NCBI GenBank assembly: GCA_963706735.1
Contig: CAVPNQ010000116.1
Coordinates: forward strand, 2,704-66,703
From: an uncultured Planctomycetia bacterium
GTDB lineage: Bacteria > Planctomycetota > MHYJ01 > WSZJ01
Reading direction: 5' to 3'
Length of the DNA: 64,000 nucleotides
Shown: in pieces, positions 3,823 through 49,615 of the stretch
Position numbering within the stretch: position 1 is the stretch's first letter
Layout of the letters: every line of letters starts with the position of its first letter
Made by a program: the position numbers and the translations under genes
The notes under the pieces: generated by a model
Databases searched by the model: none
What the model saw: the letters and a program-made list of their open reading frames with translations, nothing else
What the model was told of the DNA's origin: nothing

Positions 3823-3921
3823 CCCTTAACCTCAACCTTTCCCTTTTCCTATCCCTGGTTCCCGAGCAGGCCCATGGGCCCGGAGAGGGGAAAGGAAAAG
3901 GGGAAGGTTAAGGTTAAGGGG
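3823..3921. repeat. long hairpin with low-complexity arms (CCCTTAACC family, copy 1)
   Basis: CCCTTAACCTCAACCTTTCCCTTTTCCTATCCC pairs with GGGAAAGGAAAAGGGGAAGGTTAAGGTTAAGGGG. The loop contains GGCCCATGGGCC. A second copy lies at 29620-29736. Confidence 0.8.
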
Positions 3922-3961
3922 AGGGGACGCGTAGCTGCGGAGTTGATGTGCATCAAGTCGG

Positions 3962-3991
3962 TGACTTAATAAAGCATTGTCTTTATATAAT
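3962..3991 (+). promoter_or_regulatory. candidate sigma70-like promoter giving a leaderless or very short-leader mRNA
   Basis: TGACTT (3962-3967), an 18-nt spacer, then TATAAT (3986-3991), in an AT-rich patch. The ATG at 3998 lies 6 nt after the -10 box and has no SD. Confidence 0.3.
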
Positions 3992-10510: not shown

Positions 10511-10602
10511 GGTGCGTTCATTCTAGAGGGGGGGCCGGGCGATCCCGGCCGGAAAACAAACGGGCCGTCCGCGAGGACGGCCCGGGAGTGGTTCGTGAAG
10601 CG

Positions 10603-13007: not shown

Positions 13008-13067
13008 TCGAAAGGGCAAACTCAAAACCGCGAAACGCAAAACCAAACGCCAAAAGCAAAAGGGAGA
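13008..13067. repeat. CAAA-rich 60-bp dispersed repeat (copy 1)
   Basis: CGAAAGGGCAAACTCAAAACCGCGAAACGCAAAACCAAACGCCAAAAGCAAAAGGGAGAAA is about 90 percent identical to the reverse complement of 27955-28015. Confidence 0.8.
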
Positions 13068-13200
13068 AACAAGATCCACGGACGACGCCACGCGGCAAAC
13101 CACCCGCCGACGCTGACCGGCTTGTCGTTTGCGGTTTGTCGTTTCCTTGAGGGTTCTCCATTTTGCCTTTGCCATTTCCCCTCCCGCCCTCCCCTTCCCA

Positions 13201-13246: not shown

Positions 13247-13319
13247 GGGGGTGTAGCTCAGCTGGGAGAGCGCGTGAATGGCATTCACGAGGTCGAGGGT
13301 TCGATCCCCTTCACCTCCA
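13247..13319 (+). tRNA. tRNA-Ala (anticodon GGC), CCA not encoded
   Basis: A manual cloverleaf fold fits. The acceptor stem is GGGGGTG/CACCTCC with the G3:U70 alanine identity pair, and the D arm is GCTC-AGCTGGGA-GAGC. The anticodon stem is CGTGA/TCACG with loop ATGGCAT, and the T arm is GAGGG-TTCGATC-CCCTT. Confidence 0.9.
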
Positions 13320-13448
13320 CTGGATGTTCGCCGGACGGGGTCAACACTTCGGGCCGAAGCGAAATAAAAAGCGCTTCGGCCCTTCGTGTTGGCGGCCGCC
13401 GGTCGAAGTCGTGGCGATCCCGGATCGAGGTGGTTGAGGAGGCCTGCG

Positions 13449-14642
13449 GTGCGAAATAAAAACATCGACGTTTCGAGCGACGTCGCGCGGATCCGGAAGG
13501 ACATGGTCGAGTGCCGGCGGGATCTGCACGCGCACCCGGAGATGGCGTTCCGGGAGGTGAGGACTGCTCGCGTCGTCGCTTCGCGACTCCGCTCGCTTGG
13601 GGTGGCGGTGCGGGAAGGCGTCGCGAAAACGGGAGTTGTGGGAGTCATCAAGGGCGGGCTGCCCGGACCCGTCGTGGCTTTGCGCGCGGACATGGATGCG
13701 CTTCCGATCATCGAGAAGGAAAAGAAGAGCTACCGGTCGGGGACGCCGGGCGTGATGCACGCTTGCGGGCATGACGGGCACGTCGCGATCCTGCTCGGCG
13801 TGGCGGACGTGCTTTCGAAGCGGAAGGCGAACCTGCGCGGGTCGGTGAAGCTGATTTTCCAGCCGGCCGAGGAATCGCCGGGCGGAGCGGAGCCGATGAT
13901 CAAGGCGGGCGCGCTGAAGAATCCCGACGTGGACGCGATCTTCGGCCTGCACATGTGGAACGACTTCCCCGTCGGCCGGCTCGGGGTGCGCCCGGGCCCG
14001 CTTCTCGCGGCGGCGGACAAGTTCGAGATCACGATCACCGCGAAGGGCGGCCACGGCGCCGCGCCGCACCAGACCGCCGACCCGATCCTCGCAGCGGTGC
14101 ACGCGATCCAGGCGCTTCAGGCCATCTCCAGCCGCCTCGTCGATCCGTTGCAGCCCGTCGTCTGCTCCGTCGGGCGCATCAAGGGCGGCGACGCGTTCAA
14201 CGTGATCCCGAACAAGGTCGAGTTCGCCGGGACGATCCGGAGTTTCGACCCCAAGCTGCGGCCGCGCCTGCCGAAGATGGTGCGCGAACTGGTCGGCAAC
14301 GCGGTGCACGGGCTGGGGGCGGAGTTCGAGATGACCTACACGATGTACTACCCCGCGACGATCAACGACCCGGAGATGACCAAGGTCGTGGACGGAGTGG
14401 CGGAAGGGCTGGTAGGCGCGGAGCGGGTGGACCGGAACGTGCAGACGCTGGGCGGCGAGGACATGTCCTATTTCCTCAACGAGGTGCCGGGCTCGTTCTT
14501 CTTTCTGGGTTGCCGGAACGAGAAAAAGGGGCTTTGCGCGCCGCATCATTCCGACTTGTTCGATTTCGACGAGGAAGCTCTCCCGATCGGCGCAGAGATG
14601 CTCATCCGCACCGTCGAGCAATACTTCTCCCCCCCGAAGTAG
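13449..14642 (+). CDS. M20D-family amidohydrolase (N-acyl-amino-acid/hippurate hydrolase-like)
   Basis: DLHAHPE, ALRADMDALP, MHACGHDGH, IFQPAEE and GGEDMSYF motifs are present. The GTG at 13449 is preceded by GGAGG. Confidence 0.85.
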   Translation: MRNKNIDVSSDVARIRKDMVECRRDLHAHPEMAFREVRTARVVASRLRSLGVAVREGVAKTGVVGVIKGGLPGPVVALRADMDALPIIEKEKKSYRSGTPGVMHACGHDGHVAILLGVADVLSKRKANLRGSVKLIFQPAEESPGGAEPMIKAGALKNPDVDAIFGLHMWNDFPVGRLGVRPGPLLAAADKFEITITAKGGHGAAPHQTADPILAAVHAIQALQAISSRLVDPLQPVVCSVGRIKGGDAFNVIPNKVEFAGTIRSFDPKLRPRLPKMVRELVGNAVHGLGAEFEMTYTMYYPATINDPEMTKVVDGVAEGLVGAERVDRNVQTLGGEDMSYFLNEVPGSFFFLGCRNEKKGLCAPHHSDLFDFDEEALPIGAEMLIRTVEQYFSPPK

Positions 14643-14644
14643 CC

Positions 14645-14764
14645 GCGCCGGCAAAGCCGGCGCCCCGTACCCGTGCGCGTGCCCGTGCCCCTGCCCGGCA
14701 TTGCCGTTTTTCGCCGTACACCGCAACGGCCGGGCACGGGCACGGGCACGCGCACGGGAACGGG
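14645..14764. repeat. 19-nt GC hairpin plus a long hairpin with CCCGTGC-type arms
   Basis: GCGCCGGCAAAGCCGGCGC is followed by CCCGTACCCGTGCGCGTGCCCGTGCCCCTGCCCGG, which pairs with CCGGGCACGGGCACGGGCACGCGCACGGGAACGGG. Confidence 0.8.
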
Positions 14765-14845
14765 AGGGGCAAATATTTCAAACTTCCCCCTGTAAGATCC
14801 CTGCCTCCCAGCGTCTCTACTCCGTACGCCACCTAAAGGACGCCG

Positions 14846-15415
14846 ATGACCGAACAGGAACTCGTGGACCGGCTGGCCGCCGGCGACCGCACCGCGGTCG
14901 CTCCGCTCCTCGCCGCCCACGAAGCCCCCCTGCTCCGCTTCTCGGCCGCCCTTCTCGGCGACGCCGCCCTCGCCCAGGACGCCGTGCAGGAGACCTTCCT
15001 GCGCGTCATCCGCGAAGGCGGACGGTTGCGCGAAGTGAAGGCGCTCTTTCCCTGGCTCCTTCAGGTCACCCGCAACATCTGCCACGACCTGCGACGCAAG
15101 GAGACGCGGATGGAACGGAAACACGAGGCCGCCGCGGTGCTGGAGCCGCGTCCAGCGGAAGCGGCCGCCGACACCCGCGCGCTCGACGGCGAGCTGCGCG
15201 ACCGCGTCCAGGCCGCCGTCGCCGGCCTCCCCGAGAAACAGCGCGAAGTCCTGCGCCTCAAGCTCTGGGAAGGGCTGACCTACCGCGAGATCGCCGAACG
15301 GCTGGAAATGACGCTGACAAACGTGAGCTACCACCTCGGGCAGGCGGTCAAGGCCGTCGGGGGCCGGCTTCGGGAGGCGGGGCTCGTCGGGGATGAACAT
15401 AGGAGGGCGCTGTGA
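14846..15415 (+). CDS. ECF-type RNA polymerase sigma factor
   Basis: Region 2 (DAVQETFLRV...WLLQVTRNICHD) and region 4 (LPEKQREVLRLKLWEGLTYREIAERLEMTLTNVSYHL) are recognisable. Confidence 0.85.
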   Translation: MTEQELVDRLAAGDRTAVAPLLAAHEAPLLRFSAALLGDAALAQDAVQETFLRVIREGGRLREVKALFPWLLQVTRNICHDLRRKETRMERKHEAAAVLEPRPAEAAADTRALDGELRDRVQAAVAGLPEKQREVLRLKLWEGLTYREIAERLEMTLTNVSYHLGQAVKAVGGRLREAGLVGDEHRRAL

Positions 15416-17925: not shown

Positions 17926-17961
17926 ACGGGAGTCGGGAGGCGGGAGTTCGGAGCAAACTGC

Positions 17962-17995
17962 GCGGCCCCGGTGAAAACCGGGGCCGCGTTCGTTC
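17962..17995 (+). terminator. hairpin terminator candidate after the anti-sigma-vWA gene
   Basis: GCGGCCCCGG-TGAAAA-CCGGGGCCGC is followed by a weak T-containing tail. Confidence 0.45.
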
Positions 17996-18062
17996 GAGTT
18001 TCTGGACGAGCCGCCGGAGGACAGGCGGCCGAGGTGGTGACGGCCGGCTGTCCGCAGGGCAC

Positions 18063-18092
18063 AAAAAAAGCCCCGGCGGATTGCGCCGGGGC
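18063..18092 (-). terminator. rho-independent terminator for the 18112-20760 gene
   Basis: On the minus strand, GCCCCGGCGC-AATC-CGCCGGGGC is followed by TTTTTTT. Confidence 0.7.
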
Positions 18093-18111
18093 CTGAGGGA
18101 AGGTGGGAATC

Positions 18112-20760
18112 CTAGTTGTCGTCGTCGCGCACCCGTACCTGGAGCCGGAGATCCGCGCCCTCGGTCGGGAGCTGCTTCTTCCAGAGAACCATCGCGCCTC
18201 CCAGCGTGTCGCACGTGCAACTCCGGACCGCGAAGATGAAATTGCCGGAGATATCCTCTTCCGAGTCGTCGTCAACCAGAGCGGGGTCCGAAAGCCCGGA
18301 CGACGGGTCGTCGTCGTCGTCGCCTTCGAGCAGCCTCCAGCCCAGGTTGTCCTCTTCGGGATTGCACTCCTGGTAGTAGATGTGGCCGCTCTCGACGAAC
18401 CAGACGGCGAAGCGATTGCCGGACGTACCGGTGCCGATGAAGACCGGGGCGAACGAGAGGTCCGGATTGGTGAAAGGAAGGCTGAGCTCGAAGGGCTCGA
18501 GGGCGTCCGCGTTGACAGGAGGGACGAAGCGTTCGCCCAGGGTCGGCTCGTCGAGGTCGGTGGAATACCGGCGGGTGCGGAGGGCGTCGCCGAGGCCGTC
18601 GGACTCGTCGACGGCGTCCTCGAAGAACAGGGCCTGGACGAAATCAGGGGCGTGGGCGCGCTCGGCGTCGTCCTCGCCGGAGACGGGGTCGAACGTACCG
18701 ATGTCCTCGCCGGGCGGGGTCGGAAACAGCCTGAGAGTCTGTGAACCGACCTGGCGTGTTGTGGTATTGCTGTCGATCTCGATCTTCGCGGCGCCGGTGC
18801 CCGTCGTTTCGGCGAACAGGCGGAAGTCGTCGCTGGCGGTCAGGTCGACGTCCTGCCGGTAGACCACGAGAAGGCTTCCGTCGTCGCCGCCATCGACGGC
18901 GTTGAAATCGACGCCGAGGTAATTGACGGTGGCCGCGGAAGACAGGTCGCCCTCTTCGAATGTCTCGATCATGGTGGCGGCGGAGCCGAGGATGGGAGCC
19001 GTCGTGAGGTCGGCGGTGAGGCGGACGGTGAAGAGCTGGTCGTTCGCGACGCCGCTTTGCTCGAAGAGGAGGTTCATCACGTCCGGGTTCGACTGCGCAC
19101 CGCAGACGTACCCGAGGCCGTTCTGGAACATGAAATGGAGCACGTTCTGGCCGTCCACGTCGGCGTTGACGTTCACCGGCGGGCTCAGGGTGTCGGAGAG
19201 AGGGGGAATGACGACGGGGTCGCCGTCGTCGTCCCGGCGGGTCGTCACGTACTGCGCCGCCCAGAGGCCGATGTCGTCCGTGAGCCCGGCGTCCACGATC
19301 TCCATCCAGGCGAGCATCACGTAGTCACCGTTACGGCTGATGCGGACGTCCGCGATGAACGGGATGACCGCGTCGCTGATGTCGGGGTCGTTGACGTCGA
19401 GGAACCCGATATCGAGCAGCGTGCCGTCGGCCTCGTTGATCTCGGCGATCGCGAGCCGGGAGTTCGCAGTGAGGTCAGCATGGGAGCCCGTGAGGCTGTC
19501 CAGCAGCTGCGTCGAGAAGATCGCCACGTTGGCGAGTCCTTCGTCGCTTCCGAAGATAGCGCGGCTTCCCAGGGCGCCGTTTCCCGTCATGAAAAAAGAG
19601 CGGTTGTCGACGAGGTCGGTCGCCAGGATCGCCGTGTCGTGGAGGTGGATGGGCGGGAAGACACTGCCTGTCGCCAGGTTTACCGTCACGGCCTGGAGCA
19701 CCTCGTCCGTGTTGTTGTCCACGGATCCGCCGTACAGGATGAACGCCGGCAGGTCGTCGCCCGCCGTGTCGTTCCGCGCCGCCGTCCGGACGAAAATCGT
19801 CCCGTTGTAGCTCGACGTCAAAAGGGACTCGACGAGCGTCTCTTCGCTGCTCAGCCCGGCGTCCGAAGCGCCGAAAGCAAGGAGTGGGAGGCGCGTGTCG
19901 GAGGAGGGCGTCAGCGGAAACTCGGGGTCGAGCAATTCTGCCGGGTCGAAGTGGACCACGTGGAGCGCCTGGTCATTGTCGGTCGCGTCCGCGTCGTTGT
20001 CCTCGGACTGGACCCAGAAGACGACGGCCGAGGTCGTGTCGTCGCCGTACCGGTACGAGTTCCCCAGAGTGTCCCATCGCGCTTCTCCGCAGAGGCCGTC
20101 CGTCGCGACGCCGAACGTGAGGACGTCCTCCGTTGCTCCGTCCTCGACGCTCAGCCGCCGGGCCAGCTTCTGGAATCCGTGACGGTCCGCCGGGCTGTCC
20201 GCGAGGTCGGCGTCGAAGTACGTGGCGAACAGGCAGCGGTTGACTGCGTCGAGGGGGCCTCCGTCGAGGGAAACGTCCCGCGCCGCCCAGACGATCAGGC
20301 AGTCGCCATTCCGGCTACGCGCCTCCTCGCTGTCGTGGTTCTCCGTGTTGAGAAACACGTGGATCACCGAGCGCGCGTCCACCGCCGAAATCCCCGCATT
20401 GATCCCGTTTGCCTCCATCGCGACCGGAGGCGTCCACGCATCTCCGTCGAAGTACTGCGAGTACAGGATCGTGCTGAGGCCGGCCACCGTCGTGTAGGAG
20501 ACCATCGCCGAGCGGCGATCCCCGTTGTAGGTCACCTTGACCGCCCCGGTGATGCTCTCGTTCGAAGGGCTCATCGCGCGATTGTCGTCCGCCGTGTTGC
20601 CGGCGGACACCGGCGCGCCCGGGAAGTCGTCCGTCGTGAAGATGCCGCTTCCGTTGATATTCGTCACGATGACCCTGTCGCGGGGTTTCCGGCGACAGCC
20701 AGCGACAACGAGCGCCATGAGCACCGCGAAGAAAGTAAGCGCGGACAGTCGGGAGAGCAT
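18112..20760 (-). CDS. large acidic lipoprotein of unknown function (882 aa)
   Basis: The start MLSRLSALTFFAVLMALVVAGC (lipobox) at 20760 is preceded by GGAGG. No domain was recognised by eye. It has an Asp-rich C-terminus. Confidence 0.7.
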   Translation of the reverse strand: MLSRLSALTFFAVLMALVVAGCRRKPRDRVIVTNINGSGIFTTDDFPGAPVSAGNTADDNRAMSPSNESITGAVKVTYNGDRRSAMVSYTTVAGLSTILYSQYFDGDAWTPPVAMEANGINAGISAVDARSVIHVFLNTENHDSEEARSRNGDCLIVWAARDVSLDGGPLDAVNRCLFATYFDADLADSPADRHGFQKLARRLSVEDGATEDVLTFGVATDGLCGEARWDTLGNSYRYGDDTTSAVVFWVQSEDNDADATDNDQALHVVHFDPAELLDPEFPLTPSSDTRLPLLAFGASDAGLSSEETLVESLLTSSYNGTIFVRTAARNDTAGDDLPAFILYGGSVDNNTDEVLQAVTVNLATGSVFPPIHLHDTAILATDLVDNRSFFMTGNGALGSRAIFGSDEGLANVAIFSTQLLDSLTGSHADLTANSRLAIAEINEADGTLLDIGFLDVNDPDISDAVIPFIADVRISRNGDYVMLAWMEIVDAGLTDDIGLWAAQYVTTRRDDDGDPVVIPPLSDTLSPPVNVNADVDGQNVLHFMFQNGLGYVCGAQSNPDVMNLLFEQSGVANDQLFTVRLTADLTTAPILGSAATMIETFEEGDLSSAATVNYLGVDFNAVDGGDDGSLLVVYRQDVDLTASDDFRLFAETTGTGAAKIEIDSNTTTRQVGSQTLRLFPTPPGEDIGTFDPVSGEDDAERAHAPDFVQALFFEDAVDESDGLGDALRTRRYSTDLDEPTLGERFVPPVNADALEPFELSLPFTNPDLSFAPVFIGTGTSGNRFAVWFVESGHIYYQECNPEEDNLGWRLLEGDDDDDPSSGLSDPALVDDDSEEDISGNFIFAVRSCTCDTLGGAMVLWKKQLPTEGADLRLQVRVRDDDN

Positions 20761-21047
20761 GAGCACCTCCGAAAAAGGGGCCGGAGCCACATCCGGCCTG
20801 GGTGTACGCGGAAGTCGTATCGCCCCGGAATGAGAGCGCTTGAAGAACGCGGCGAACGCCGCCTCGGAAGGGGCGGACGGAGTGCGGCCGTGGTCGCCGG
20901 CCGTGCGGCGGATCTTCAGGAAGTAGATCGGCAGATGCCGCGCCGGAGCTTGAGTGCGGGAAGGCGCCCCAGTGCCTGGCGACGGCGGCAGGAGGGCGAA
21001 GTTCCGATGGTGAGGGTAGAGTGTGAAGGCGACACTAAGGAGTCCGC

Positions 21048-22130
21048 ATGAAATCGGCCGTATCCAGGCTTGCGCTCGCTGCCCTGCTCGCAACCGCGGC
21101 GTGCGGGACAGCGACCTCCGAAGAGCCGACGCCGCCCGCTCCCGAAGAGAAGGCGGAGCCGCGGCCCCGGCCGATCCGTCCCCTGTTCGACAAGCCGGAC
21201 GACCGCCACGCGCTTCCGCAGTGGGGGACCGGGCCGATGGACGTGCGCGACCCGTACCCGCTCGCGCTCGCCCATTTCACGATCCCGTTCGAATCGCCCG
21301 CCACTCCCCCGGCGGGGTCAGTCGAGCTCCGCGGGCCGGAGTTCGTCTGGGCCAATACTCAGATCATCGAGGAGGCCGGGGTCGTCGATGCGGAGACCGT
21401 CACCGGCTACCTCCGCTGCGGCCTCGGGCTGACCGACCGGTGGGAAATCGCGCTCGAGATCCCGTACTACTGGCTGGGCGGCGGAATCCAGGACGTCTAC
21501 ATCGACAAGTTTCACAACCGGCTGAAAATCCTCGACGCGCATCGCGAAAATCGCGAGCGCAACAGCTTCCAGATCAGCCGCAAGGACACGAGGATCCGTC
21601 GCGGCGGCCGCGTCGGCGACCTGGCCGCCGGCACGAAGTTCCGGTTCTTCGACGGTTCCTGGTGGCTGCCGGCCGTTTCGGCGTCCCTCTGGCTCAAGGC
21701 GCCGACCTCGTCTTCCGCGTCGCTGGGGCAGCAGGGGTGGGACGTGGCGGGCTCCGTGCAGGTTTCGAAGCGCCTCGGGGCGATCGTCCTGGACGCCGGA
21801 TGCGGGGCCACGATTCTCACGGATGTGCGCCTGGGCGATTTCGAATACGAGCGCATGGGGTTCATGGCCTGGGGCGGCGGAGAGATCGGGATCGTCCCGG
21901 GGCTGACCTTCGAAGCGCACACCTCCTACCGATCGCCGCATCTCAAGGACAGCGGCGACCTCTCCCGGGCGCGCCTGTACCTCGTCCTCGGGCTTCGCTA
22001 CGCCGCGCGCATTCCGGTGGACGGGCGCTTCCTGGACGTCGAGTGCGCGCTGGGGATTCTCGAGAACTACGGGCCGCTGACGACGACGGCGGACTTCGGG
22101 TTTGTGTTCTCGGTGCTGATACGGATGTAG
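21048..22130 (+). CDS. putative outer-membrane beta-barrel lipoprotein (DUF3187-like, tentative)
   Basis: AAGGAG SD, lipobox LLATAAC, alternating hydrophobic strands and a terminal aromatic-rich strand (DFGFVFSVLIRM). Confidence 0.6.
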   Translation: MKSAVSRLALAALLATAACGTATSEEPTPPAPEEKAEPRPRPIRPLFDKPDDRHALPQWGTGPMDVRDPYPLALAHFTIPFESPATPPAGSVELRGPEFVWANTQIIEEAGVVDAETVTGYLRCGLGLTDRWEIALEIPYYWLGGGIQDVYIDKFHNRLKILDAHRENRERNSFQISRKDTRIRRGGRVGDLAAGTKFRFFDGSWWLPAVSASLWLKAPTSSSASLGQQGWDVAGSVQVSKRLGAIVLDAGCGATILTDVRLGDFEYERMGFMAWGGGEIGIVPGLTFEAHTSYRSPHLKDSGDLSRARLYLVLGLRYAARIPVDGRFLDVECALGILENYGPLTTTADFGFVFSVLIRM

Positions 22131-22214
22131 GGATGAGGACGAACAGGACGGGATGGACGGCGGCGTATGCGCCGGACCCTTTAGAGACCCCCACGACCGC
22201 TTCAGGAGCCCAAC

Positions 22215-23195
22215 ATGCGCTGCGCCCATCTCGCCGGCACTTTCCTGCTCGTCCTGGCCCTCGCATCCTCTTCCGAAACCCCGCCCGACGCGACGGCCGA
22301 TGTGCGCGCCGCCGTGCAGAAGCTCGTCGATGCGCAGGAGAAGGGCGACAAGGCGGCGGCGCAGGCGGCGAGCGACGCGCTGGCCATCCCGAAGCTCAGG
22401 GAATGGTTCGAAGGGGCGTTCACGATGAAACTCCCGGAGGACGCGCAGCGGATGCTCAAGGACGACGCCGCCGCGACGTGGAGGTCGCTGGCGCTGCCGT
22501 TCCGGGTCACGAAGGGAAACACGATCCAGGACGTGAAGCGCGCGACGACGGTGGACGAGGCGCCGGAGGGATCGGCCGCGCGCGTGTTCCTGCGGCTGCT
22601 GAAGAATCCCGTCCCGATGTACACGATCACGCTGGTGCGAATGGGCGAACCGGAGCCCCTCGGCTGCTTCTTCGTCCTCGACGGCAAAGTGCGCTTCCTC
22701 GCCGACTCCTACGCCGAAATGCTCTGCGACACGCAGGCGTGCAAGAAGGTGCTCAAGCAGTTCGGCGCCGCGATCTACGACTTCGAAGAGAAGAACAAGC
22801 GCTTCCCTGTCGATCTCGCTGAAGTCCCGGTCAAGCTGGAGGGCGGCGCGGCCGCAGAGTGCCGATTTGCGCCCGCGGGCGCGAGGGCGTTCACGTACGT
22901 CTACCCCGCCGCGGGGCACGCGGCGCCTCCGGACAACATGCTGGCGTTCGACCCGGTCACGCACCCCGACGACCACCGCGTGGTCCTGTTCCAGGGCGGA
23001 CGCGTGGAACTGCTGCCGGAAGCGACGTTCCGCAGGATGCTGACGGACCAGCTCGGGCGCGACAAGGCGGTCATCGAGTTGCGGCTGAAGGAGGCGCGCG
23101 AGGGCAAGGTCGCGGCGGGCGAGGATGCGAAGAAGAAGGTGGCGGCGCTGGAGGCGGTGCTGAAGCTGGCGGCGGAGATCGCGCCCAAGAAATGA
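22215..23195 (+). CDS. secreted hypothetical protein
   Basis: AGGAG SD, a signal peptide, and GC3-rich coding throughout. Confidence 0.6.
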   Translation: MRCAHLAGTFLLVLALASSSETPPDATADVRAAVQKLVDAQEKGDKAAAQAASDALAIPKLREWFEGAFTMKLPEDAQRMLKDDAAATWRSLALPFRVTKGNTIQDVKRATTVDEAPEGSAARVFLRLLKNPVPMYTITLVRMGEPEPLGCFFVLDGKVRFLADSYAEMLCDTQACKKVLKQFGAAIYDFEEKNKRFPVDLAEVPVKLEGGAAAECRFAPAGARAFTYVYPAAGHAAPPDNMLAFDPVTHPDDHRVVLFQGGRVELLPEATFRRMLTDQLGRDKAVIELRLKEAREGKVAAGEDAKKKVAALEAVLKLAAEIAPKK

Positions 23196-23269
23196 GCGGA
23201 CGGGCGCGAGGTTTCCGATCCTCGGGCTTGAAGCGCGCCGGTGCGTCGTGTTCCATGCGGCGGGGGGCC

Positions 23270-24052
23270 ATGCTGGAGAAGGCCATGTTTCGGATTGCGT
23301 TTGTGGCGTTGATCGTGTCTTGTGCCGCCGCGATGTCCGGATGCGCTGGCGGGGAGAGAGAGCCGAAGGGCCCTCCTGCAACCGAAGCGGATCCTCGGAA
23401 ACTCGAGCAGTCCCAACTCGATGCCGCGCGAACCGTCCTTCGCGATCTCTGTCCCCTCTGGGTGAAGGTCAGCGACTTGCGACTCCGGGAACGGATCCGC
23501 CGCTCGGACGAGCTCGCGGACCTGGCGCGCCGCGCGGTGACATGGGTCGCGCCTCGGTTTCAGATTCTTCGCGGTCACTACCGCTGGGACGCGGATTTCA
23601 ATAGCTACCCGGCGGACTATGCCGACGTGCCCGGCCCGGACGAAGTCGAGCGCTGTATCCAGGAACTCGAGCACGGCGATCTCAATCCGCAGGCCCTGGA
23701 GGAACAGGGACGGTGGGCGGGCATCGTCGATGCGATCCGGGGCGGCCGCTTCCAGGAGTCCTGGCCCTGGGAGGAAGTCGCGGCGCGCGAACTGGTCAGG
23801 AAGCTCGACGAGGTCTTCATCGACCTGGACTTCACGGACTCGACGCTCTACGACATCGTGGACTACATCCAGGAGTTCGCCAGAATCAACATCGTGATTT
23901 CGGCTGAAGTTCGAAAGGCCGGGATTCCCGACCGGAAGATTGATTTCCACGCCACGTCGGAGTGCATCGGAAAGACGCTTCGGCGCCTTTGCGACGACTA
24001 CGGCCTGACATGGAAAGTCGAGAACTACGTACTTCTGATAATTGCGAAGTGA
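23270..24052 (+). CDS. lipoprotein with a C-terminal STN/secretin-N0-like domain
   Basis: FVALIVSCAAAMSGC lipobox. The C-terminus FIDLDFTDSTLYDIVDYIQEFARINIVISAEV...LRRLCDDYGLTWKVENYVLLI matches the N0-like block of the 1-2264 paralogs. Confidence 0.65.
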   Translation: MLEKAMFRIAFVALIVSCAAAMSGCAGGEREPKGPPATEADPRKLEQSQLDAARTVLRDLCPLWVKVSDLRLRERIRRSDELADLARRAVTWVAPRFQILRGHYRWDADFNSYPADYADVPGPDEVERCIQELEHGDLNPQALEEQGRWAGIVDAIRGGRFQESWPWEEVAARELVRKLDEVFIDLDFTDSTLYDIVDYIQEFARINIVISAEVRKAGIPDRKIDFHATSECIGKTLRRLCDDYGLTWKVENYVLLIIAK

Positions 24053-24123
24053 GTTCCGGTCGTCGCCAAATCCGCCGCGAGGAGCGCAATCTGAAGCTCG
24101 GGAAATTCACAATCGACCCATGG

Positions 24124-26830: not shown

Positions 26831-27883
26831 CTACCCCATCGCCCTCGCGCGGAGCTGCCCGCAGCCCGCGGCGATGTCGATGCCCTTCTCCATCCGCACC
26901 GTGCTCGGCACGCCGTATTCGCGCAGGATTTCCTGGAACGCATCCGACCGTGCGTCGGGCGGGCGGGCGAACGGCCCGCCGTCGGTCGGGTTGACGGGGA
27001 TCAGGTTGACGTGGCACGCGGTCCCCGCGAGCAGTTCTCCCAGCGCGCGCGCCTGCTCCGGCGCGTCGTTCTTCCCCGCCATGAGGACGTACTCGTAAAA
27101 AACCCGCCGCCCCGTGATCTCCGCGTACTGCCGGCAGGCTTCCAGAAGTTCCGCCACCGGGTACCGACGGTTGACCGGCAGGATCGCGGCGCGCGTGGCG
27201 TCGTCGGGGGCGTGAAGCGACACGGCGAGGTGGGTGGCGAGAGGTTCGCGGGCGAAGCGGAGGATTTCGGGGACGAGGCCGACGGTGGAGACGGTGATGC
27301 GGCGGGTGCCGAGGTGGAGGCCGCGGCCGTCGCAGAGGATGGCGATGGCCTTGAGGGTGCGGTCGTAGTTGGCGAAGGGTTCGCCCATCCCCATGAAGAC
27401 GGCGTTGGTGAGCTCCGAATTCTCGGCGCGGGCGATCCGCGCGGCCCAGACCGCCTGCGCGACGATCTCGCCCGCGGAGAGGTTGCGCCGGAACCCCTGC
27501 TGGCCGGTCGCGCAGAACGTGCACCCCATGGCGCACCCGGCCTGCGTGGACACGCAGACCGTGCGGCGGCTGCGGCGGTGGCCGTCGGCCTCGTAACGCA
27601 TCAGCACGGTCTCGATCAGCTCGCCGTCGGGGAGGCGGAAGAGCGCCTTGTCGGTGGATCCGTCCGCAGAAGTGCGGTGCACGACGGTCTCCAGCGGGTC
27701 GATCGAGAACCGCGCTTCCAGCCCTCCGGCCTTCCCGAACGTGGTCGCGCCTTCGCGGTGGATCGACTTGAAAAGCTGCTCCGCCGCGGGGCGCTTGAGC
27801 CCGTGCTCGGCCGCGGCCGCGACGAGTTCGTCGCGGGAGAGGTCGAGGACGGTGGGCTGTGATGCGGGCGAGCCAGTTGCCAT
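26831..27883 (-). CDS. rlmN: 23S rRNA/tRNA (adenine-C2)-methyltransferase, radical SAM
   Basis: CVSTQAGCAMGCTFCATGQQG, NAVFMGMGEPFANY, STVGL, LAVSLHA and NLIPVNP are present. The start MATGSP is at 27883. Confidence 0.9.
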   Translation of the reverse strand: MATGSPASQPTVLDLSRDELVAAAAEHGLKRPAAEQLFKSIHREGATTFGKAGGLEARFSIDPLETVVHRTSADGSTDKALFRLPDGELIETVLMRYEADGHRRSRRTVCVSTQAGCAMGCTFCATGQQGFRRNLSAGEIVAQAVWAARIARAENSELTNAVFMGMGEPFANYDRTLKAIAILCDGRGLHLGTRRITVSTVGLVPEILRFAREPLATHLAVSLHAPDDATRAAILPVNRRYPVAELLEACRQYAEITGRRVFYEYVLMAGKNDAPEQARALGELLAGTACHVNLIPVNPTDGGPFARPPDARSDAFQEILREYGVPSTVRMEKGIDIAAGCGQLRARAMG

Positions 27884-27954
27884 GTCGCCGGATTCTACAG
27901 GTTCTCGCGCGAGGGGCTCGAATGGCATGCCCGGCGCAGCTTTCCTGTCCTTTT

Positions 27955-28015
27955 TTTCTCTCTTTTGCTTTTGGCGTTTGGCTTTGTGTTTCGCCGTTTT
28001 GAGTTTGCCCTTTCG
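27955..28015. repeat. CAAA-rich 60-bp dispersed repeat (copy 2, inverted)
   Basis: Its reverse complement CGAAAGGGCAAACTCAAAACGGCGAAACACAAAGCCAAACGCCAAAAGCAAAAGAGAGAAA matches 13008-13067. Confidence 0.8.
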
Positions 28016-28142
28016 GGGCCCGGATAAACGCCAGACACAGGAACCGTACCCGGCGCCATCAATCCGCCTGAACTCGGATCGTGAATAGTCCCCGTTCCTA
28101 TCTGTTAGGGATCGCCGCCCCTTCGGGTACATTTCCCGCCCC

Positions 28143-29585
28143 ATGCGCAGGATCATTCTGGCCTACGTCGTCGCCGTGGCGCTCTTCGCGATCGGTATCA
28201 CGTTCGCCCTCCGCGCCGGTCGCGGACTCCCCTCCCCTGCCCAAGCCCCGGGCGCCTCGGCCCACGCCGCAGTACAGCCTGCGGAAGCGCCGCCGCTGTG
28301 GTCCGGGCTGCGCGAGAATGCACGCGATCCCCTCAGCCGGCTGCTGCTCCAGTTCATCGTCATCATCCTGGCCGCGCGCGGCATGGGCTGGCTCTTCACG
28401 CGCATCGGCCAGCCGTCGGTCATCGGGGAAATCGCCGCCGGGATCCTGCTCGGCCCCTCGCTTCTCGGCTGGATCTGGCCGGACGCCGTCGCGTTCGTCT
28501 TCGCGAAGGACTCGCTGGGCACGCTCCGACTCTTCAGCCAGATCGGCGTCTGCGTGTTCATGTTCGTCGTCGGCATGGAGCTCAAGGTTTCGCACCTGCG
28601 CGACAAGGCGCACACCGCGGTCGTCATCAGCCACGCGGGGATCATGGTCCCGTACCTGCTCGGGGTCACGGCGTCGATCTTCCTGTACACGCACTTCGCG
28701 GGCCGGGGCACGACGTTCCCCGAGTTCGCGCTGTTCATGGGGATCGCCATGAGCATCACGGCGTTCCCCGTGCTCGTCCGCATCCTCGAGGAACGGGGAA
28801 TGGACAAGACGTTCCTGGGGAGCACCGCGATCACCTGCGCCGCCGTCGAGGACGCAACCGCGTGGGCGGTCCTCGCCTTCGTCGTCGCCATGGTCCGCGC
28901 CACCGGGCTCTCCTCGACGTTCTTCAACCTGGCGCTCGTCGCCGTCTTCGTCGCGGTCATGCTCGGCGGCGTCCGGCCGCTGCTGCAGCGGAGGATGGAA
29001 GCGGTGCCGGAGGGGCAATCCCCGTCCCGTGGTCTCATCGCGGCGGTTCTCGTGTTTATGAGCGCGTGCGCGCTGGCGACCGAGGTCATCGGCATCCACG
29101 CGATCTTCGGCGCGTTCCTCGCCGGCGTCGTCATGCCGCGCCGGAAGGCCTTCCGCGACGACCTCACCCTCCGGCTCGGGAACTTCAGCAGCGTCTTCCT
29201 CCTGCCGCTCTTCTTCGCCTTCAGCGGCCTGCGCACGCAGATCGGCCTCCTCAACGACGCCGCGAGCTGGCTGATCGCCCTCGCCATCATCGGCGTCGCC
29301 GTCGCAGGCAAGCTCGGCGGCTGCATGCTCACCGCCCGCTTCACCGGCCTCTCCTGGCTCGACTCCTTCTCGATCGGTGCGCTCATGAACACCCGCGGCC
29401 TCGTCGAGCTCATCGCCCTCAACATCGGCTACGACCTCGGGATCCTCCCCCCGCGCATCTTCACCATGATGGTCCTCATGGCCCTCGCGACGACGTTCAT
29501 GACAGGGCCGCTGCTCAGCGTGGCGGAGAGATTGAAGCGCCGTGCGGCTGCGAATCCGCCACCGGGGACTGCGCCGGCCGCTTAA
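28143..29585 (+). CDS. monovalent cation:proton antiporter (CPA2/Kef-type membrane domain)
   Basis: A polytopic 480-aa protein with QPSVIGEIAAGILLGPS, FMFVVGMEL and NTRGLVELI motifs. Confidence 0.85.
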   Translation: MRRIILAYVVAVALFAIGITFALRAGRGLPSPAQAPGASAHAAVQPAEAPPLWSGLRENARDPLSRLLLQFIVIILAARGMGWLFTRIGQPSVIGEIAAGILLGPSLLGWIWPDAVAFVFAKDSLGTLRLFSQIGVCVFMFVVGMELKVSHLRDKAHTAVVISHAGIMVPYLLGVTASIFLYTHFAGRGTTFPEFALFMGIAMSITAFPVLVRILEERGMDKTFLGSTAITCAAVEDATAWAVLAFVVAMVRATGLSSTFFNLALVAVFVAVMLGGVRPLLQRRMEAVPEGQSPSRGLIAAVLVFMSACALATEVIGIHAIFGAFLAGVVMPRRKAFRDDLTLRLGNFSSVFLLPLFFAFSGLRTQIGLLNDAASWLIALAIIGVAVAGKLGGCMLTARFTGLSWLDSFSIGALMNTRGLVELIALNIGYDLGILPPRIFTMMVLMALATTFMTGPLLSVAERLKRRAAANPPPGTAPAA

Positions 29586-29619
29586 GTTGATACTCCGAAC
29601 GGCTCGCGAGATCGGCAGC

Positions 29620-29736
29620 GCCCTTAACCTTAACCTTTCCCTTTCCCTTTTCCTTTCCCGGCCTTTCGCCTGTGAGAAACGGCGGGTTAAGGAAAAGGGA
29701 AAGGTAAAGGTTAAGGGGCGCCGGCTTTGCCGGCGC
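29620..29736. repeat. long hairpin (CCCTTAACC family, copy 2) plus the 19-nt GC hairpin
   Basis: GCCCTTAACCTTAACCTTTCCCTTTCCCTTTTCCTTTCCC pairs with GGGTTAAGGAAAAGGGAAAGGTAAAGGTTAAGGGGC. It is followed by GCGCCGGCTTTGCCGGCGC, the exact reverse complement of 14645-14663. Confidence 0.8.
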
Positions 29737-29791
29737 GGGGACGAGAATGAGATCGTGTGGCGATTCCCTGACGTTGAGACACAATCGCGGC

Positions 29792-30340
29792 ATGCCCATC
29801 GATCCCTCCACCCCCGAACTCTGGGGCAAAGTCATTTCCGCCGCGGTCGTCCCCGTCGTCATGATCTCCGCCTGCGGGCTGCTCTGCCTGGCGCTTTACA
29901 ACCGGCTGACCGCCGTTTTCACGCGGCTGCGGGCGCTCGCGCACGAGGCCTTGGAGGACCAGGACGCTCTGGTAACCCGAGCGCGAACCGAAACGCAGCG
30001 CTGGCCGCGACAGCGAGCGCGCATCCGGTCGGACGCGCGCCAGAGGCAGGCGGACGAGCTGCTGGTCAAGGCGCGGCTGCTGCGCCGCGCGGTCGCGTTG
30101 AACCTGGTCGCGATCGCGTTCATGCTGCTGTGCTCGCTCGCGGTCGGCGCCGGAGTGCTCTTCCCTGCCGTGTTCTACGCCGCTGCGGCGCTGTTCGTCG
30201 CCGGAATCCTCTGCGCGCTCGCGGCGGTCGGGTTCGCGCTCGCCGAACTTCGCGGGGCGCTCGACTCGATCCTCATGGAACACGGCCTCGTCGTCCGCCT
30301 CGGCAAAGAACTCCCCGACGACGGCCCCGCTTCCCCCTGA
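29792..30340 (+). CDS. DUF2721-like membrane protein
   Basis: TM helices flank an Arg-rich amphipathic segment. The start MPIDPS is at 29792. Confidence 0.55.
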   Translation: MPIDPSTPELWGKVISAAVVPVVMISACGLLCLALYNRLTAVFTRLRALAHEALEDQDALVTRARTETQRWPRQRARIRSDARQRQADELLVKARLLRRAVALNLVAIAFMLLCSLAVGAGVLFPAVFYAAAALFVAGILCALAAVGFALAELRGALDSILMEHGLVVRLGKELPDDGPASP

Positions 30341-36614: not shown

Positions 36615-36814
36615 GTAGGAAGGCTGGCGAAGGCTGGCGAAGGCGTGCGAAGGCTGGCGAAGGCTGGCTAAAGGCTGCCTGAGGCCAAGCTGGGCGGGCC
36701 GTAGCCCCAAAGCGTCCCGACTTGTCTTCCAGTCGACTGACTCCAGCCAAGCTTGCGAGTGTTCCTTCTGCCAGCCTTCGCACGCCTTCGCACGCCTTCG
36801 CCAGCCTTCCCTAC
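36615..36814. repeat. long hairpin whose arms are 10-nt tandem repeats
   Basis: AGGCTGGCGA-type units occur 5 times at 36621-36670. They are mirrored by GCCTTCGCAC-type units at 36774-36808. The element sits between two convergent stop codons. Confidence 0.8.
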
Positions 36815-41427: not shown

Positions 41428-41453
41428 GGATTGAGGAGAAACGGACGACTCGA

Positions 41454-41485
41454 GCGGGCCCGGGAATCTCCGGGCCCGCTTTTTT
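41454..41485 (+). terminator. rho-independent terminator
   Basis: GCGGGCCCGG-GAATCT-CCGGGCCCGC is followed by TTTTTT. Confidence 0.8.
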
Positions 41486-45083: not shown

Positions 45084-45114
45084 TGGCCCGGCCTCTCGGC
45101 CGGGCCATTTTTTT
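45084..45114 (+). terminator. rho-independent terminator
   Basis: TGGCCCGGCC-TCTC-GGCCGGGCCA is followed by TTTTTTT. Confidence 0.8.
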
Positions 45115-49268: not shown

Positions 49269-49306
49269 GGCCCCGGGGAGATGCGAATCTCCCCGGGGCT
49301 TTTTTG
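49269..49306 (+). terminator. rho-independent terminator
   Basis: GCCCCGGGGAGAT-GCGA-ATCTCCCCGGGGC is followed by TTTTTT. Confidence 0.8.
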
Positions 49307-49415
49307 TAGGCACGAGGGGGACGCAATCGGCCATTCGCACGACGCGGGAATCGGGACCGGTTGGCGAGACTCGCGAGGGACCAGACCGTTCGCAGTGGAT
49401 GTCGTTTTTCCCTCT

Positions 49416-49528
49416 GAGCGCGAAAGAAATCGCCGCGGTCCGGGCGGAGTCGGCCTTCAATCGAAAAGCCTTTGAACAGCGAAAACCTGGCCGACGTAGC
49501 CTGGACCGCGGTGATTTCTTTCGCGCTC
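49416..49528. repeat. 113-bp palindromic element (GAGCGCGAAAGAAATCGCCGCGG family)
   Basis: GAGCGCGAAAGAAATCGCCGCGGTCCGGGC pairs with GCCTGGACCGCGGTGATTTCTTTCGCGCTC. An inner GTCGGCC/GGCCGAC pair is also present. Confidence 0.8.
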
Positions 49529-49615
49529 ACTACCCTTCGACTCGCCCTTCGGGCTCGCTCAGGGTACGCCGGGCCGGGAACCGCCCCGGTCAGGGAGGAG
49601 GTTAGATCGGCCCGG

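What the first reader, a model, noticed from the sequence alone, without database searches (positions are those of the whole stretch)
29620..29736. CCCTTAACC-type long hairpin present twice, one copy flanked by a 19-nt GC hairpin shared with another element
Copies at 3823-3921 and 29620-29736 share arms built from CCTTAAC / CCTTTCC-like short units. The second copy has an extra 7-nt unit. Each folds into a hairpin of about 33-40 bp.

Copy 2 is followed by GCGCCGGCTTTGCCGGCGC. This is the exact reverse complement of the hairpin at 14645-14663, which precedes a different long hairpin.

Both CCCTTAACC copies lie just downstream of a plus-strand stop codon and upstream of the next plus-strand gene. 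This looks like a REP/MITE-like family with modular parts. I do not recognise it as a described element.
Basis: seen in the sequence. Interest (0 to 1): 0.65.

Follow-up and report, generated by a model that had tools for sequence, protein, structure and literature searches.

The report
Gene-less copies of an IVS-like palindrome
The two long hairpins are real: they are gene-less copies of a palindromic repeat whose full-length relatives carry a small four-helix-bundle (Avd-like / 23S rRNA intervening-sequence) protein gene between the same arms, which ties an abundant class of hairpins after genes in these Planctomycetes to the poorly understood rRNA intervening sequences.

Summary
Two ~97-nt hairpins (3823-3920, 29621-29717) share arms made of 6-nt CCTTNN units. 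The 19-mer at 29718-29736 is the exact reverse complement of 14645-14663.

The family is not REP/RAYT-like. It occurs at many non-orthologous sites in at least three related Planctomycetota MAGs, almost always 0-35 nt after a stop codon. Small GC hairpins directly abut the arms.

In relative L044 the same arms (32/33 paired, about 97% identical to the window arm) bracket a 154-aa gene. That gene is PF05635/TIGR02436, the "23S rRNA intervening sequence protein", which is Avd-like. All nine such genes I examined, from Planctomycetota, Alphaproteobacteria, Myxococcota, Bacteroidota and others, sit inside inverted repeats whose arms are short tandem repeats (period 6-9). One uses the CCCGTG unit of the window's 14664-14764 hairpin.

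The window hairpins are therefore best read as ORF-less derivatives of IVS-like elements located outside rRNA. Gene-bearing copies keep perfect arms through fully compensated changes. ORF-less copies carry private mismatches. One orthologous site holds a different hairpin family in different genomes.

Function is inferred, not shown: a dsRNA stem at the mRNA 3' end acting as an RNase III site or a barrier. I found no published description of this arrangement.

The parts
29621..29717 (.). Long hairpin, copy 2 of the TTAACC family. Left arm 29621-29659 (6.5 units of CCTTNN, with one extra CCTTTC unit), loop 29660-29684, right arm 29685-29717. No ORF.
   Evidence: The right arm differs at 1 of 33-34 positions from the right arm of the gene-bearing element in L044.
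29718..29736 (.). Small GC hairpin S (GCGCCGGC-TTT-GCCGGCGC) directly abutting the long hairpin. It is part of the composite unit.
   Evidence: The S-plus-arm junction is identical to that at the orthologous 14.6-kb site in L010 and L034. There is 95% identity over 64 nt to L034.
3823..3920 (.). Long hairpin, copy 1 of the TTAACC family. Arms 3823-3855 and 3888-3920, loop 32 nt. No S hairpin and no ORF.
14645..14663 (.). Second copy of the 19-nt S hairpin (GCGCCGGC-AAA-GCCGGCGC), 2 nt after the stop codon of the M20 peptidase gene.
14664..14764 (.). Long hairpin of a different family (CCCGTG units, period 6, 34/36 paired). It occupies the site where the closest relatives carry a TTAACC hairpin.
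   Evidence: The same hexamer unit forms the 27/27 arms around a four-helix-bundle gene in L145.
36618..36810. Long hairpin of a third family (GAAGGCTGGC units, period 10; arms 41-46 nt at 91-95% complementarity by the repeat finder; the predicted RNA stem runs through both flanking stop codons). It fills the whole space between the stop codons of two convergent genes.
   Evidence: z -9.3.
28143..29585 (+). Upstream gene (Na+/H+ exchanger) whose 3' end carries copy 2. Given as context.
29747..30340 (+). Downstream gene (DUF2721). Given as context.

Best explanation
The hairpins at 3823-3920 and 29621-29717 are ORF-less, non-autonomous copies of an IVS-like palindromic element. The neighbouring hairpins at 14664-14764 and 36618-36810 are other families of the same class.

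The full form of the element is a pair of 25-40-nt inverted repeats built from short tandem units. These bracket a small gene for a four-helix-bundle protein (PF05635/TIGR02436). That protein family is encoded inside 23S rRNA intervening sequences and includes the DGR accessory protein Avd. The short form keeps the arms, a few inner bases and the adjoining small GC hairpin, but has lost or never had the gene.

Copies sit 0-35 nt after stop codons. There they would be transcribed on the end of the upstream mRNA and would fold into a 33-40-bp double-stranded stem.

Shown here:
- The family is dispersed and conserved in relatives.
- Its arms are those of a four-helix-bundle gene element.
- This architecture is general across phyla.
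- Gene-bearing copies keep their arms perfectly paired through compensated change.
- ORF-less copies decay by private mismatches.
- Sites turn over between genomes.

Inferred, not shown:
- In RNA the stem acts as an RNase III cleavage site and/or a 3' end barrier or terminator that uncouples neighbouring genes. This is the behaviour known for rRNA IVSs and for Neisseria Correia elements.
- The short copies derive from, or are mobilised like, the gene-bearing ones. The copying mechanism is unknown.
For: 1. A genome-collection scan found the arm pattern as inverted pairs only in related Planctomycetota MAGs (JAIOPR01, CAZPWT01, JBBTCT01), on many contigs.

2. In L044 the arms 3955-3987 and 4383-4415 (32/33 paired) bracket ORF 4006-4470. 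This ORF matches PF05635 at E 1.6e-19, TIGR02436 at 1.1e-19 and PDB 2GSC at 1.8e-8. Homologues at 63-84% identity end in tails such as VKEKGKVKVKG. Those tails are what these arms encode.

3. Nine of nine four-helix-bundle genes examined are bracketed by tandem-repeat-armed inverted repeats (eight independent, because L100 and L103 are related loci). They are L044, L141, L142, L100, L103, L049, L145, L146 and L147. L145 and L147 use CCGTGC-type units like the window's 14664 hairpin.

4. L044 and L141 are orthologous loci (75.8% identity over 3.2 kb). Their arms differ at 8 of 33 positions and every difference is compensated, giving 34/34 pairing in L141.

5. Across all 19 TTAACC-family copies compared (17 of them ORF-less), deviations from one consensus are 49 single-arm changes against 18 compensated changes. 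The compensated changes are mostly in the gene-bearing L141 element and in the ORF-less L141 1101-1190 variant. This is the pattern of copies descending from a master sequence.

6. Position: about 24 of 27 periodic-arm hairpins lie downstream of a gene end, typically 0-35 nt from the stop.

7. Density of periodic-arm hairpins: 4 in the 64-kb window and 9.5 per 100 kb in clade loci (a biased sample), against 0.73 per 100 kb in 1.1 Mb of unrelated loci.

8. Site turnover. Downstream of the orthologous M20 peptidase gene, five genomes each carry a long periodic-arm hairpin from four different arm families. There is also a filled versus empty orthologous spacer, L141 11738-11923 against L044 5711-5747.

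9. Literature. rRNA IVSs are terminal inverted repeats forming a ~28-bp stem around an S23p ORF, and they are excised by RNase III (PMC4990558). PF05635 is Avd-like (PMC10053308).
Against: - No four-helix-bundle gene, and none of its conserved promoter motif, lies in the window. The link therefore rests on relatives.
- The loops of the ORF-less copies show no remnant of the gene. Only 7-9 inner bases (TGCCGTT/AACGGCA) are shared.
- No target-site duplication or defined insertion chemistry is visible.
- Folding energy shows no consistent bias towards the sense strand, so there is no positive sign of selection at the RNA level.
- No U-tract follows the stems.
- Only nine four-helix-bundle loci were examined, and six of them came from a search seeded with one protein.
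- The direction of descent is not settled: the gene may have been lost from the element, or it may have inserted into pre-existing hairpins.
Confidence: 0.66

Rival explanations
1. These are host-selected 3'-end hairpins (terminators or insulators) that arise and change in place. Microsatellite-type slippage plus arm-to-arm templated correction would drive the change. Four-helix-bundle genes would be secondary invaders that insert into the loops of such hairpins, as IVSs replace rRNA tetraloops.
For: - A hairpin is kept at the same orthologous site while its sequence changes between genomes.
- The two arms of copy 2 differ in unit number.
- CCCGTA units occur inside TTAACC arms in L010 and L021.
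- The hairpins are strongly tied to stop codons.
- Ordinary gene ends in the window also carry GC hairpins.
- An IS630-like transposase gene sits inside one such inverted repeat together with the four-helix-bundle gene.
Against: - The same 33-nt order of units recurs at many non-orthologous sites in several genomes, with star-like private mutations. In-place origin does not predict this.
- The arms are AT-rich in a 67% GC genome.
- The S-L composites at different sites are 95% identical over 64 nt.
- A few copies lie in divergent (promoter-side) spacers.
Confidence: 0.2
2. This is a MITE left by a conventional DDE transposon. The arms are terminal inverted repeats recognised by a transposase encoded elsewhere in the genome.
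For: - The structure has conserved ends and a variable interior.
- The family is dispersed at low copy number, with star-like divergence.
- One relative (L147) has an IS630-like DDE_3 gene inside such an inverted repeat.
Against: - No target-site duplication is visible in 19 aligned copies.
- The only gene repeatedly found between these arms is the four-helix-bundle gene, in 9 of 9 cases.
- The window encodes no transposase.
- Tandem-repeat arms of many unrelated sequences are not typical of a single transposase's ends.
Confidence: 0.07
3. This is a REP/REPIN family spread by a RAYT (IS200/IS605-like Y1 transposase).
For: - The elements are extragenic palindromes at gene ends.
- The arrangement is mosaic and modular, with small GC hairpins, reminiscent of BIMEs.
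- REPs are reported in the PVC superphylum (PMC3733652).
Against: - No conserved GTAG or CGTC tag lies next to the stems.
- The stems are 33-40 bp of tandem units, not a 20-40-nt imperfect palindrome.
- Copy number is low, about 7 pattern matches per MAG.
- The window has no Y1 transposase.
- The arms are associated with PF05635 genes instead.
Confidence: 0.04
4. These are chance low-complexity palindromes or an assembly artefact.
For: The arms are of low complexity, and assemblers can mis-join inverted repeats.
Against: - The expected number of pattern matches is 0.05 against 8 observed.
- Fold z-scores are -6 to -10.
- An independent assembly has the identical sequence.
- The family is present in several genomes.
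Confidence: 0.01

Closest known systems
23S rRNA intervening sequences (IVS) carrying an S23p / four-helix-bundle ORF (Coxiella, Leptospira; PMC4990558)
   Same: Terminal inverted repeats form a long stem of about 28 bp or more around a loop. In the full form that loop holds a PF05635 gene. Short ORF-less forms also exist. The origin and mobility of IVSs are unknown.
   Different: - The elements here are not in rRNA. They sit in intergenic spacers just after protein-gene stop codons.
- The arms are built from tandem 6-10-nt units.
- Small GC hairpins adjoin the arms.
- ORF-less copies are numerous (4 in 64 kb).
- RNase III processing was not tested here.
- Whether classical IVS stems are also tandem-repeat-based could not be checked.
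Neisseria Correia / NEMIS elements and similar MITEs (ERIC, RUP, BOX). This comparison rests on my own knowledge of that literature.
   Same: They are short, non-autonomous palindromic repeats near genes. Their inverted repeats fold into long RNA hairpins inside mRNAs, and for Correia elements RNase III cuts those hairpins. BOX elements are also modular.
   Different: Correia elements have defined 26-bp terminal repeats, TA target duplications and conserved interiors. Here the interior is fully variable, no duplication is seen, and the gene-bearing relatives encode a four-helix-bundle protein rather than a transposase.
REP / BIME / REPIN elements with RAYT transposases (PMC3733652, PMC3116915)
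   Same: They are extragenic palindromes concentrated at gene 3' ends. They have a mosaic arrangement and are proposed to act in termination and mRNA stabilisation.
   Different: The elements here have no GTAG/CGTC tag and no RAYT. Their stems are much longer and have tandem-repeat arms. Copy number per family is low, and there are many unrelated arm families.
Short tandemly repeated intergenic heptamers (cyanobacterial STRR; TAACTGA repeats of Beggiatoaceae, PMC4679880)
   Same: They are runs of 6-7-nt units in intergenic DNA, found across several phyla and suspected to be mobile or regulatory.
   Different: Those are direct repeats, mostly upstream of start codons. Here two inverted runs form a hairpin after stop codons.
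Intrinsic (Rho-independent) terminators
   Same: Both are stable stem-loops shortly after a stop codon.
   Different: No U-tract follows these stems. The stems are 3-4 times longer than usual. The same sequence recurs at unrelated genes.

Membership tests
23S rRNA intervening sequence (IVS) | Inserted in a 23S rRNA helix (helix 9, 25 or 45), replacing its loop | tested here: not met
   All window copies lie between protein-coding genes. Rfam finds no rRNA in the window, only one tRNA.
23S rRNA intervening sequence (IVS) | Terminal inverted repeats forming a long stable stem | tested here: met
   Stems are 33-41 bp with z -6 to -10.
23S rRNA intervening sequence (IVS) | Loop encodes an S23p / PF05635 four-helix-bundle protein (in the long forms) | tested here: inconclusive
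   This is met for the family's relative L044 and for 8 other elements. It is not met for the window copies, whose loops are 25-32 nt.
23S rRNA intervening sequence (IVS) | Excised from the transcript by RNase III | not testable with these tools
REP / REPIN (RAYT-associated) | Conserved GTAG or CGTC tetranucleotide at one end of a 20-40-nt palindrome | tested here: not met
   The aligned flanks of 19 copies show no such tag, and the arms are 33-40 nt each. The GTAG at 14640 is just the stop codon context and reads GTAA in L034.
REP / REPIN (RAYT-associated) | A RAYT (Y1 transposase) gene in the genome, itself flanked by the repeats | tested here: inconclusive
   None was found among the roughly 50 window proteins scanned against Pfam. 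The rest of the genome is not available.
MITE (DDE transposon derivative) | Target-site duplication flanking the terminal inverted repeats | tested here: not met
   No direct repeat flanks the arms in 19 aligned copies. Instead the flanks are GC hairpins.
MITE (DDE transposon derivative) | An autonomous element with the same ends encoding a transposase | tested here: not met
   The element with the same ends (L044) encodes only a four-helix-bundle protein. L147 has a DDE_3 gene inside a different-family inverted repeat, together with the four-helix-bundle gene.
Intrinsic terminator | GC-rich stem followed by a U-tract | tested here: not met
   No terminator-like site is found in 29300-30000. 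The arms are about 45% GC and are followed by GC-rich sequence.
Integron attC site | RYYYAAC / GTTRRRY core sites in an array of gene cassettes next to intI | tested here: not met
   CCTTAAC / GTTAAGG resemble the cores. However, the copies are scattered among syntenic housekeeping genes, the other families (CCCGTG, GAAGGCTGGC) lack the cores, and no integrase is present.
Proposed class: tandem-repeat-armed inverted repeats around PF05635 genes, and their ORF-less copies | Arms made of at least 4 degenerate tandem units (period 6-10) forming a stem of at least 24 bp; the same arm family found around a PF05635 gene | tested here: met
   Arm periodicity scores are 0.70-0.87 at period 6 for the window copies. 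Arm identity to the L044 element is about 97%.

The most novel reading that the evidence does not exclude
Tandem-repeat-armed palindromes carrying an Avd-like four-helix-bundle gene could be a distinct, phylum-spanning class of mobile element. Its ORF-less copies would populate gene 3' ends, and its rRNA-resident members would be the classical IVSs.

Avd is the reverse-transcriptase cofactor of diversity-generating retroelements. The arms look like products of reiterative copying. The class may therefore spread through an RNA intermediate, with the protein recognising the periodic stem of its own transcript.
Probability: 0.2. Interest if true: 0.85.

Novelty: new variant of a known kind. Interest (0 to 1): 0.62.

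Why it matters
The origin and function of rRNA intervening sequences and of the very widespread stand-alone four-helix-bundle proteins are still open (PMC4990558).

If the link found here holds, IVSs are one niche of a much larger family of palindromic elements. That family also sits at the ends of ordinary genes. It has gene-less derivatives at a density comparable to REPs, and it turns over quickly at fixed sites.

This gives concrete material to test how the elements move, what the protein binds, and whether bacteria such as Planctomycetes use such stems to end or process mRNAs.

There is also a practical point. These repeats break metagenome assemblies: L001 ends inside one, and many four-helix-bundle contigs are under 2 kb. 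They are therefore probably under-counted.

Tried and rejected
- **Orthologues of the copy-2 site.** The Na+/H+ exchanger has no homologue above 74% identity. The two closest loci (L050, L054) are not syntenic and have no hairpin. The closest relative (L136) lacks this gene block. No empty or filled comparison was therefore possible for copies 1 and 2.
- **Metagenome scan with the M20 peptidase.** It returned only relatives at 50% identity or less. I used them as a control set.
- **Other collections.** A viral-contig scan with a four-helix-bundle alignment and a tblastn against plasmids found nothing.
- **Strand bias.** Sense and antisense RNA folding energies differ in no consistent direction.
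- **Rfam.** Only sub-threshold generic microRNA-hairpin matches were found.
- **Gene remnants.** No remnant of the four-helix-bundle gene is found in the larger loops.
- **Defence systems.** The protein has no PADLOC match.
- **Target-site duplications.** None is visible.
- **Integron attC reading.** Rejected; see the membership test.
- **Point mutation from TTAACC to CCCGTG.** I considered that the window's CCCGTG hairpin is a point-mutated TTAACC hairpin, because all differences are AT to GC when the units are aligned. This cannot be told apart from a shared 6-nt periodicity. About 13 compensated changes plus replacement of the loop and right flank, at about 10% flanking divergence, fit a replacement better.
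- **Region 13018-13175.** This A-rich/T-rich region is not a significant hairpin (z -0.09).

Full report
**1.

The window (66.6% GC) carries two hairpins with closely similar arms, at 3823-3920 and 29621-29717. The arms are runs of 6-nt units (CCTTAA, CCTTTC, CCTTTT). Each hairpin folds into 36-41 base pairs, far more stably than shuffled sequence (z -6.1 and -7.3).

A pattern common to the arms is expected 0.05 times in the window and occurs 8 times at up to 3 mismatches. Seven of those eight matches lie in the two hairpins.

Copy 2 has one extra 6-nt unit in its left arm. It is followed at once by GCGCCGGCTTTGCCGGCGC (29718-29736). This is the exact reverse complement of 14645-14663, which precedes a different long hairpin (14664-14764, CCCGTG units).

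A fourth long hairpin with 10-nt units (GAAGGCTGGC) fills the gap between two convergent stop codons at 36618-36810.

All four lie 0-35 nt downstream of a stop codon. An independent short-read assembly has the identical copy-2 sequence and ends inside it.

**2. It is a family, and it is shared with relatives**

I scanned one genome per species, 185,579 species in all, for CCCTTAACCTNNACCTTNCCC. This gave 48 loci. Matches in other phyla are single and mostly lie in coding sequence.

Inverted pairs, meaning hairpins, occur only in Planctomycetota MAGs of about 65-67% GC:
- JAIOPR01: 7 contigs.
- CAZPWT01: 6 contigs, 7 copies.
- JBBTCT01: 2 contigs.

A diverged form occurs in JACPRD01.

Two of these loci are syntenic with the window at 80-94% nucleotide identity. 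These genomes are therefore close relatives of the window's organism.

Nineteen aligned copies give the consensus arm CCCTTAACCTTAACCTTTCCCTTTTCCTTAACC. It has a short inner extension (TGCCGTT...AACGGCA) and a loop of 11-54 nt with no conservation.

**3. Modularity**

In most copies a small GC-rich hairpin (S) abuts the outer end of an arm with no spacer. S has a 6-8-bp stem and a loop of 3-4 nt, often GAA or AAA. In several copies the other side carries a ~30-nt module (M) of consensus CCGCCTCCGCSGCTKCGCSGCTCCGGCGG.

The exact 19-mer occurs only as S followed by CCC plus an arm. This happens at window 29718-29736 on the minus strand, at window 14645-14663, and at the orthologous 14.6-kb site in L010/L136/L137 and L034.

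S plus the adjoining arm is 95% identical over 64 nt between window copy 2 and L034, which is a non-orthologous site in another genome. S therefore travels with the long hairpin.

Both orientations of the S-L-M composite occur relative to the upstream gene.

Ordinary gene ends in the window carry 9-13-bp GC hairpins with tetraloops and no T-tail. S resembles the local terminator style.

**4. The key link: the same arms bracket a gene**

In L044 (JAIOPR01) the left arm (3955-3987, preceded by an S hairpin and a TTGACA/ATACTT promoter-like site) and the right arm (4383-4415) are 381 nt apart. They enclose ORF 4006-4470.

The product matches three references:
- PF05635, "23S rRNA-intervening sequence protein": E 1.6e-19.
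- TIGR02436, "four helix bundle protein": E 1.1e-19.
- Xanthomonas XCC0516 pentamer, PDB 2GSC: E 1.8e-8.

The literature treats this family as the homologue of the DGR accessory protein Avd (PMC10053308).

The right arm of window copy 2 differs from the L044 right arm at one position. The similarity runs on into the inner bases (AACGGCRGG).

Homologues of this protein at 63-84% identity from other samples end in VKEKGKVKVKG-like tails, which is what the arm encodes. The arm family and this gene lineage therefore stay together.

**5. The architecture is general**

Every four-helix-bundle gene I could inspect lies inside an inverted repeat whose arms are short tandem repeats.

| Locus | Source | Arm unit or sequence | Pairing |
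|---|---|---|---|
| L044 | JAIOPR01 | TTAACC family | 32/33 |
| L141 | JACPRD01 | CCCTTG/ACCTTG | 34/34 |
| L142 | Planctomycetota | GGGGATGGGG type | 32/36 |
| L100, L103 | soil metagenomes | CTGCCGT, period 7 | 27/29, 23/25 |
| L049 | Saprospiraceae | GATTGGAAA | 23/25 |
| L145 | Alphaproteobacteria, 72% GC | CCGTGC | 27/27 |
| L146 | Kofleriaceae | CCGAGC/CTGAGC | 21/22 |
| L147 | 46% GC organism | CGTGCC CGAGCC CGTGCC... | 24/24 |

In L147 the repeat also encloses an IS630-like transposase gene.

L145 and L147 use the same hexamer as the window's 14664-14764 hairpin.

The window itself encodes no four-helix-bundle protein, transposase, RAYT or reverse transcriptase. Its hairpins are therefore non-autonomous.

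**6. How the arms evolve**

L044 and L141 are orthologous loci (one 3.2-kb alignment at 75.8% identity, running through the element). Their proteins are 63% identical. Their arms differ at 8 of 33 positions, and all eight differences are compensated. L141 pairs 34/34. Gene-bearing elements are thus kept perfectly paired, either by selection or by copying of one arm from the other.

Across all 19 aligned copies, 49 deviations from the consensus affect one arm only and 18 are compensated. Most of the 18 are in the gene-bearing L141 element and in the ORF-less variant L141 1101-1190. The typical ORF-less copy therefore carries private single-arm changes. This is the star-like pattern of copies derived from a conserved master and then left to decay.

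Several arms in two different genomes are still identical to the 33-nt consensus, although orthologous genes of those genomes are only 80-90% identical.

**7. Sites persist, sequences turn over**

Downstream of the orthologous M20 peptidase gene (window 13386-14642), and upstream of a conserved ECF-type promoter of the next gene, five genomes each have a long periodic-arm hairpin. The arms differ.

| Genome | Arm type |
|---|---|
| CAZPWT01 (97% protein identity to the window) | TTAACC |
| JAIOPR01 | TTAACC |
| Window | CCCGTG |
| JADLHC01 | GTTGGCG/GTTAGCA |
| JACPRD01 | GTTCGGC |

The 19-nt S is retained in the first three.

A filled versus empty orthologous spacer also exists. L141 11738-11923 is a 186-nt hairpin between two co-directional genes, whereas L044 has a 37-nt spacer there.

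Periodic-arm hairpins are about ten times denser in this clade than in 1.1 Mb of unrelated loci. The few in the controls include loci that also hold four-helix-bundle elements.

**8. What it most likely does (inferred)**

The elements are placed where they would be transcribed on the end of the upstream mRNA. There they would form a 33-40-bp duplex. They lack a U-tract, match no Rfam family above threshold and show no sense-strand bias in stability.

By analogy with rRNA IVSs, which RNase III excises from the stem made by their inverted repeats (PMC4990558), and with Correia elements (my own knowledge), the most likely effect is RNase III cleavage and/or a 3' barrier. Either would define the upstream mRNA end and uncouple the downstream gene.

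The hairpin's symmetry and both orientations of S-L-M fit either an orientation-independent role or simple selfish persistence. How copies are made is unknown.

**9. Comparison with what is known, and novelty**

The nearest described entity is the 23S rRNA IVS with its S23p ORF. The window elements fail the defining feature of that family, which is residence in rRNA. They share its architecture and, through relatives, its gene.

REP/RAYT, DDE-MITE, attC and intrinsic-terminator memberships each fail a tested defining feature (see the membership table).

Seven full-text searches found no description of any of the following:
- tandem-repeat-armed inverted repeats around PF05635 genes outside rRNA;
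- their ORF-less derivatives at gene ends;
- their turnover at fixed sites.

Subscription-only literature was not searchable, so prior description cannot be excluded. I class the finding as a new variant of a known kind.

**10. Limits**

- The rest of the source genome is not available.
- Orthologues of the copy-1 and copy-2 sites were not found.
- Only nine four-helix-bundle loci were inspected.
- The direction of descent is unresolved: gene loss from the element, or gene insertion into hairpins.
- Function rests on analogy.

Noticed in passing
window 2449-2573, 49415-49529, 58711-58824; L033 5112-5252: A second, unrelated inverted-repeat family of about 115-140 nt. Its ends read (T/A)GRGCGCGCGAARAAT..., its arms are not periodic and its interiors vary. 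It occurs in convergent and also divergent spacers. It looks like a separate MITE-like element.
   Followed up: partly
window 10561-10584, 17961-17988, 18070-18092, 41453-41480, 45084-45107, 49270-49299: Perfect 9-13-bp GC-rich hairpins with GNRA-like tetraloops lie shortly after gene ends, with no T-tract. They are probably this organism's ordinary terminator or 3'-end structures.
   Followed up: partly
L044 3897-3935, L141 9886-9925, L142 178-215: A conserved promoter-like motif, ATCTTGACAAC-N(3-8)-GTTGAT-N-ATA(A/C)T, precedes four-helix-bundle genes of different arm families. It lies outside the left arm in L044 and L141 but inside it in L142. It is absent from the window.
   Followed up: partly
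L147 2903-4399: A perfect 24-bp GC-rich periodic inverted repeat in a 46% GC genome encloses an IS630-like gene pair (HTH_29 plus DDE_3) and a four-helix-bundle gene together.
   Followed up: no
window 13386-14764; L044 4006-5728; L141 10001-11720; L100 985-2773; L103: Hairpins or four-helix-bundle elements lie directly next to M20 peptidase genes in loci reached by independent routes. L100 and L103 were selected through M20, so the link may be coincidence.
   Followed up: no
L001 end (1721); protein table: Assemblies break at these repeats. The Logan contig ends inside the right arm of copy 2, most four-helix-bundle homologues sit on contigs under 2-3 kb, and L138 starts just after the site orthologous to copy 1. 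The elements are probably under-represented in MAGs.
   Followed up: no
proteins P0217-P0223, P0240, P0235, P0256: The annotated four-helix-bundle proteins carry C-terminal dipeptide-repeat tails (KGKVKVKG, GTGTGTG, GSGSEAGSG). These are read-through into the right arm and probably not functional protein sequence.
   Followed up: partly
window 13247-13402: A tRNA gene (13247-13319) is followed by a hairpin (13331-13402) that is conserved in L136, L137 and L138.
   Followed up: no
window 14789-14820: CCTGTAA...CGTCTC upstream of the ECF sigma-factor gene (14846-15415) is conserved in three genomes. It marks the right-hand limit of the variable hairpin region and is probably an ECF-type promoter.
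   Followed up: no
L002 4456-5713: In a Bacteroidales MAG a 30-nt periodic inverted repeat (CAACTGAA units, resembling the TAACTGA repeats reported in Beggiatoaceae) brackets an entire 395-aa aminotransferase-like gene.
   Followed up: no
L045 3244-3382: A Desulfobacterales genome has an ORF-less hairpin with GGGTTAAGG-type units but the G-rich arm first. Similar units therefore occur as hairpins in other phyla.
   Followed up: no
window 17992-24084 and 27870-30340 versus L136: The window and its closest relative differ by replaced gene blocks. The exchanger - hairpin - DUF2721 block carrying copy 2 is absent from the corresponding place in CAZPWT01.
   Followed up: partly
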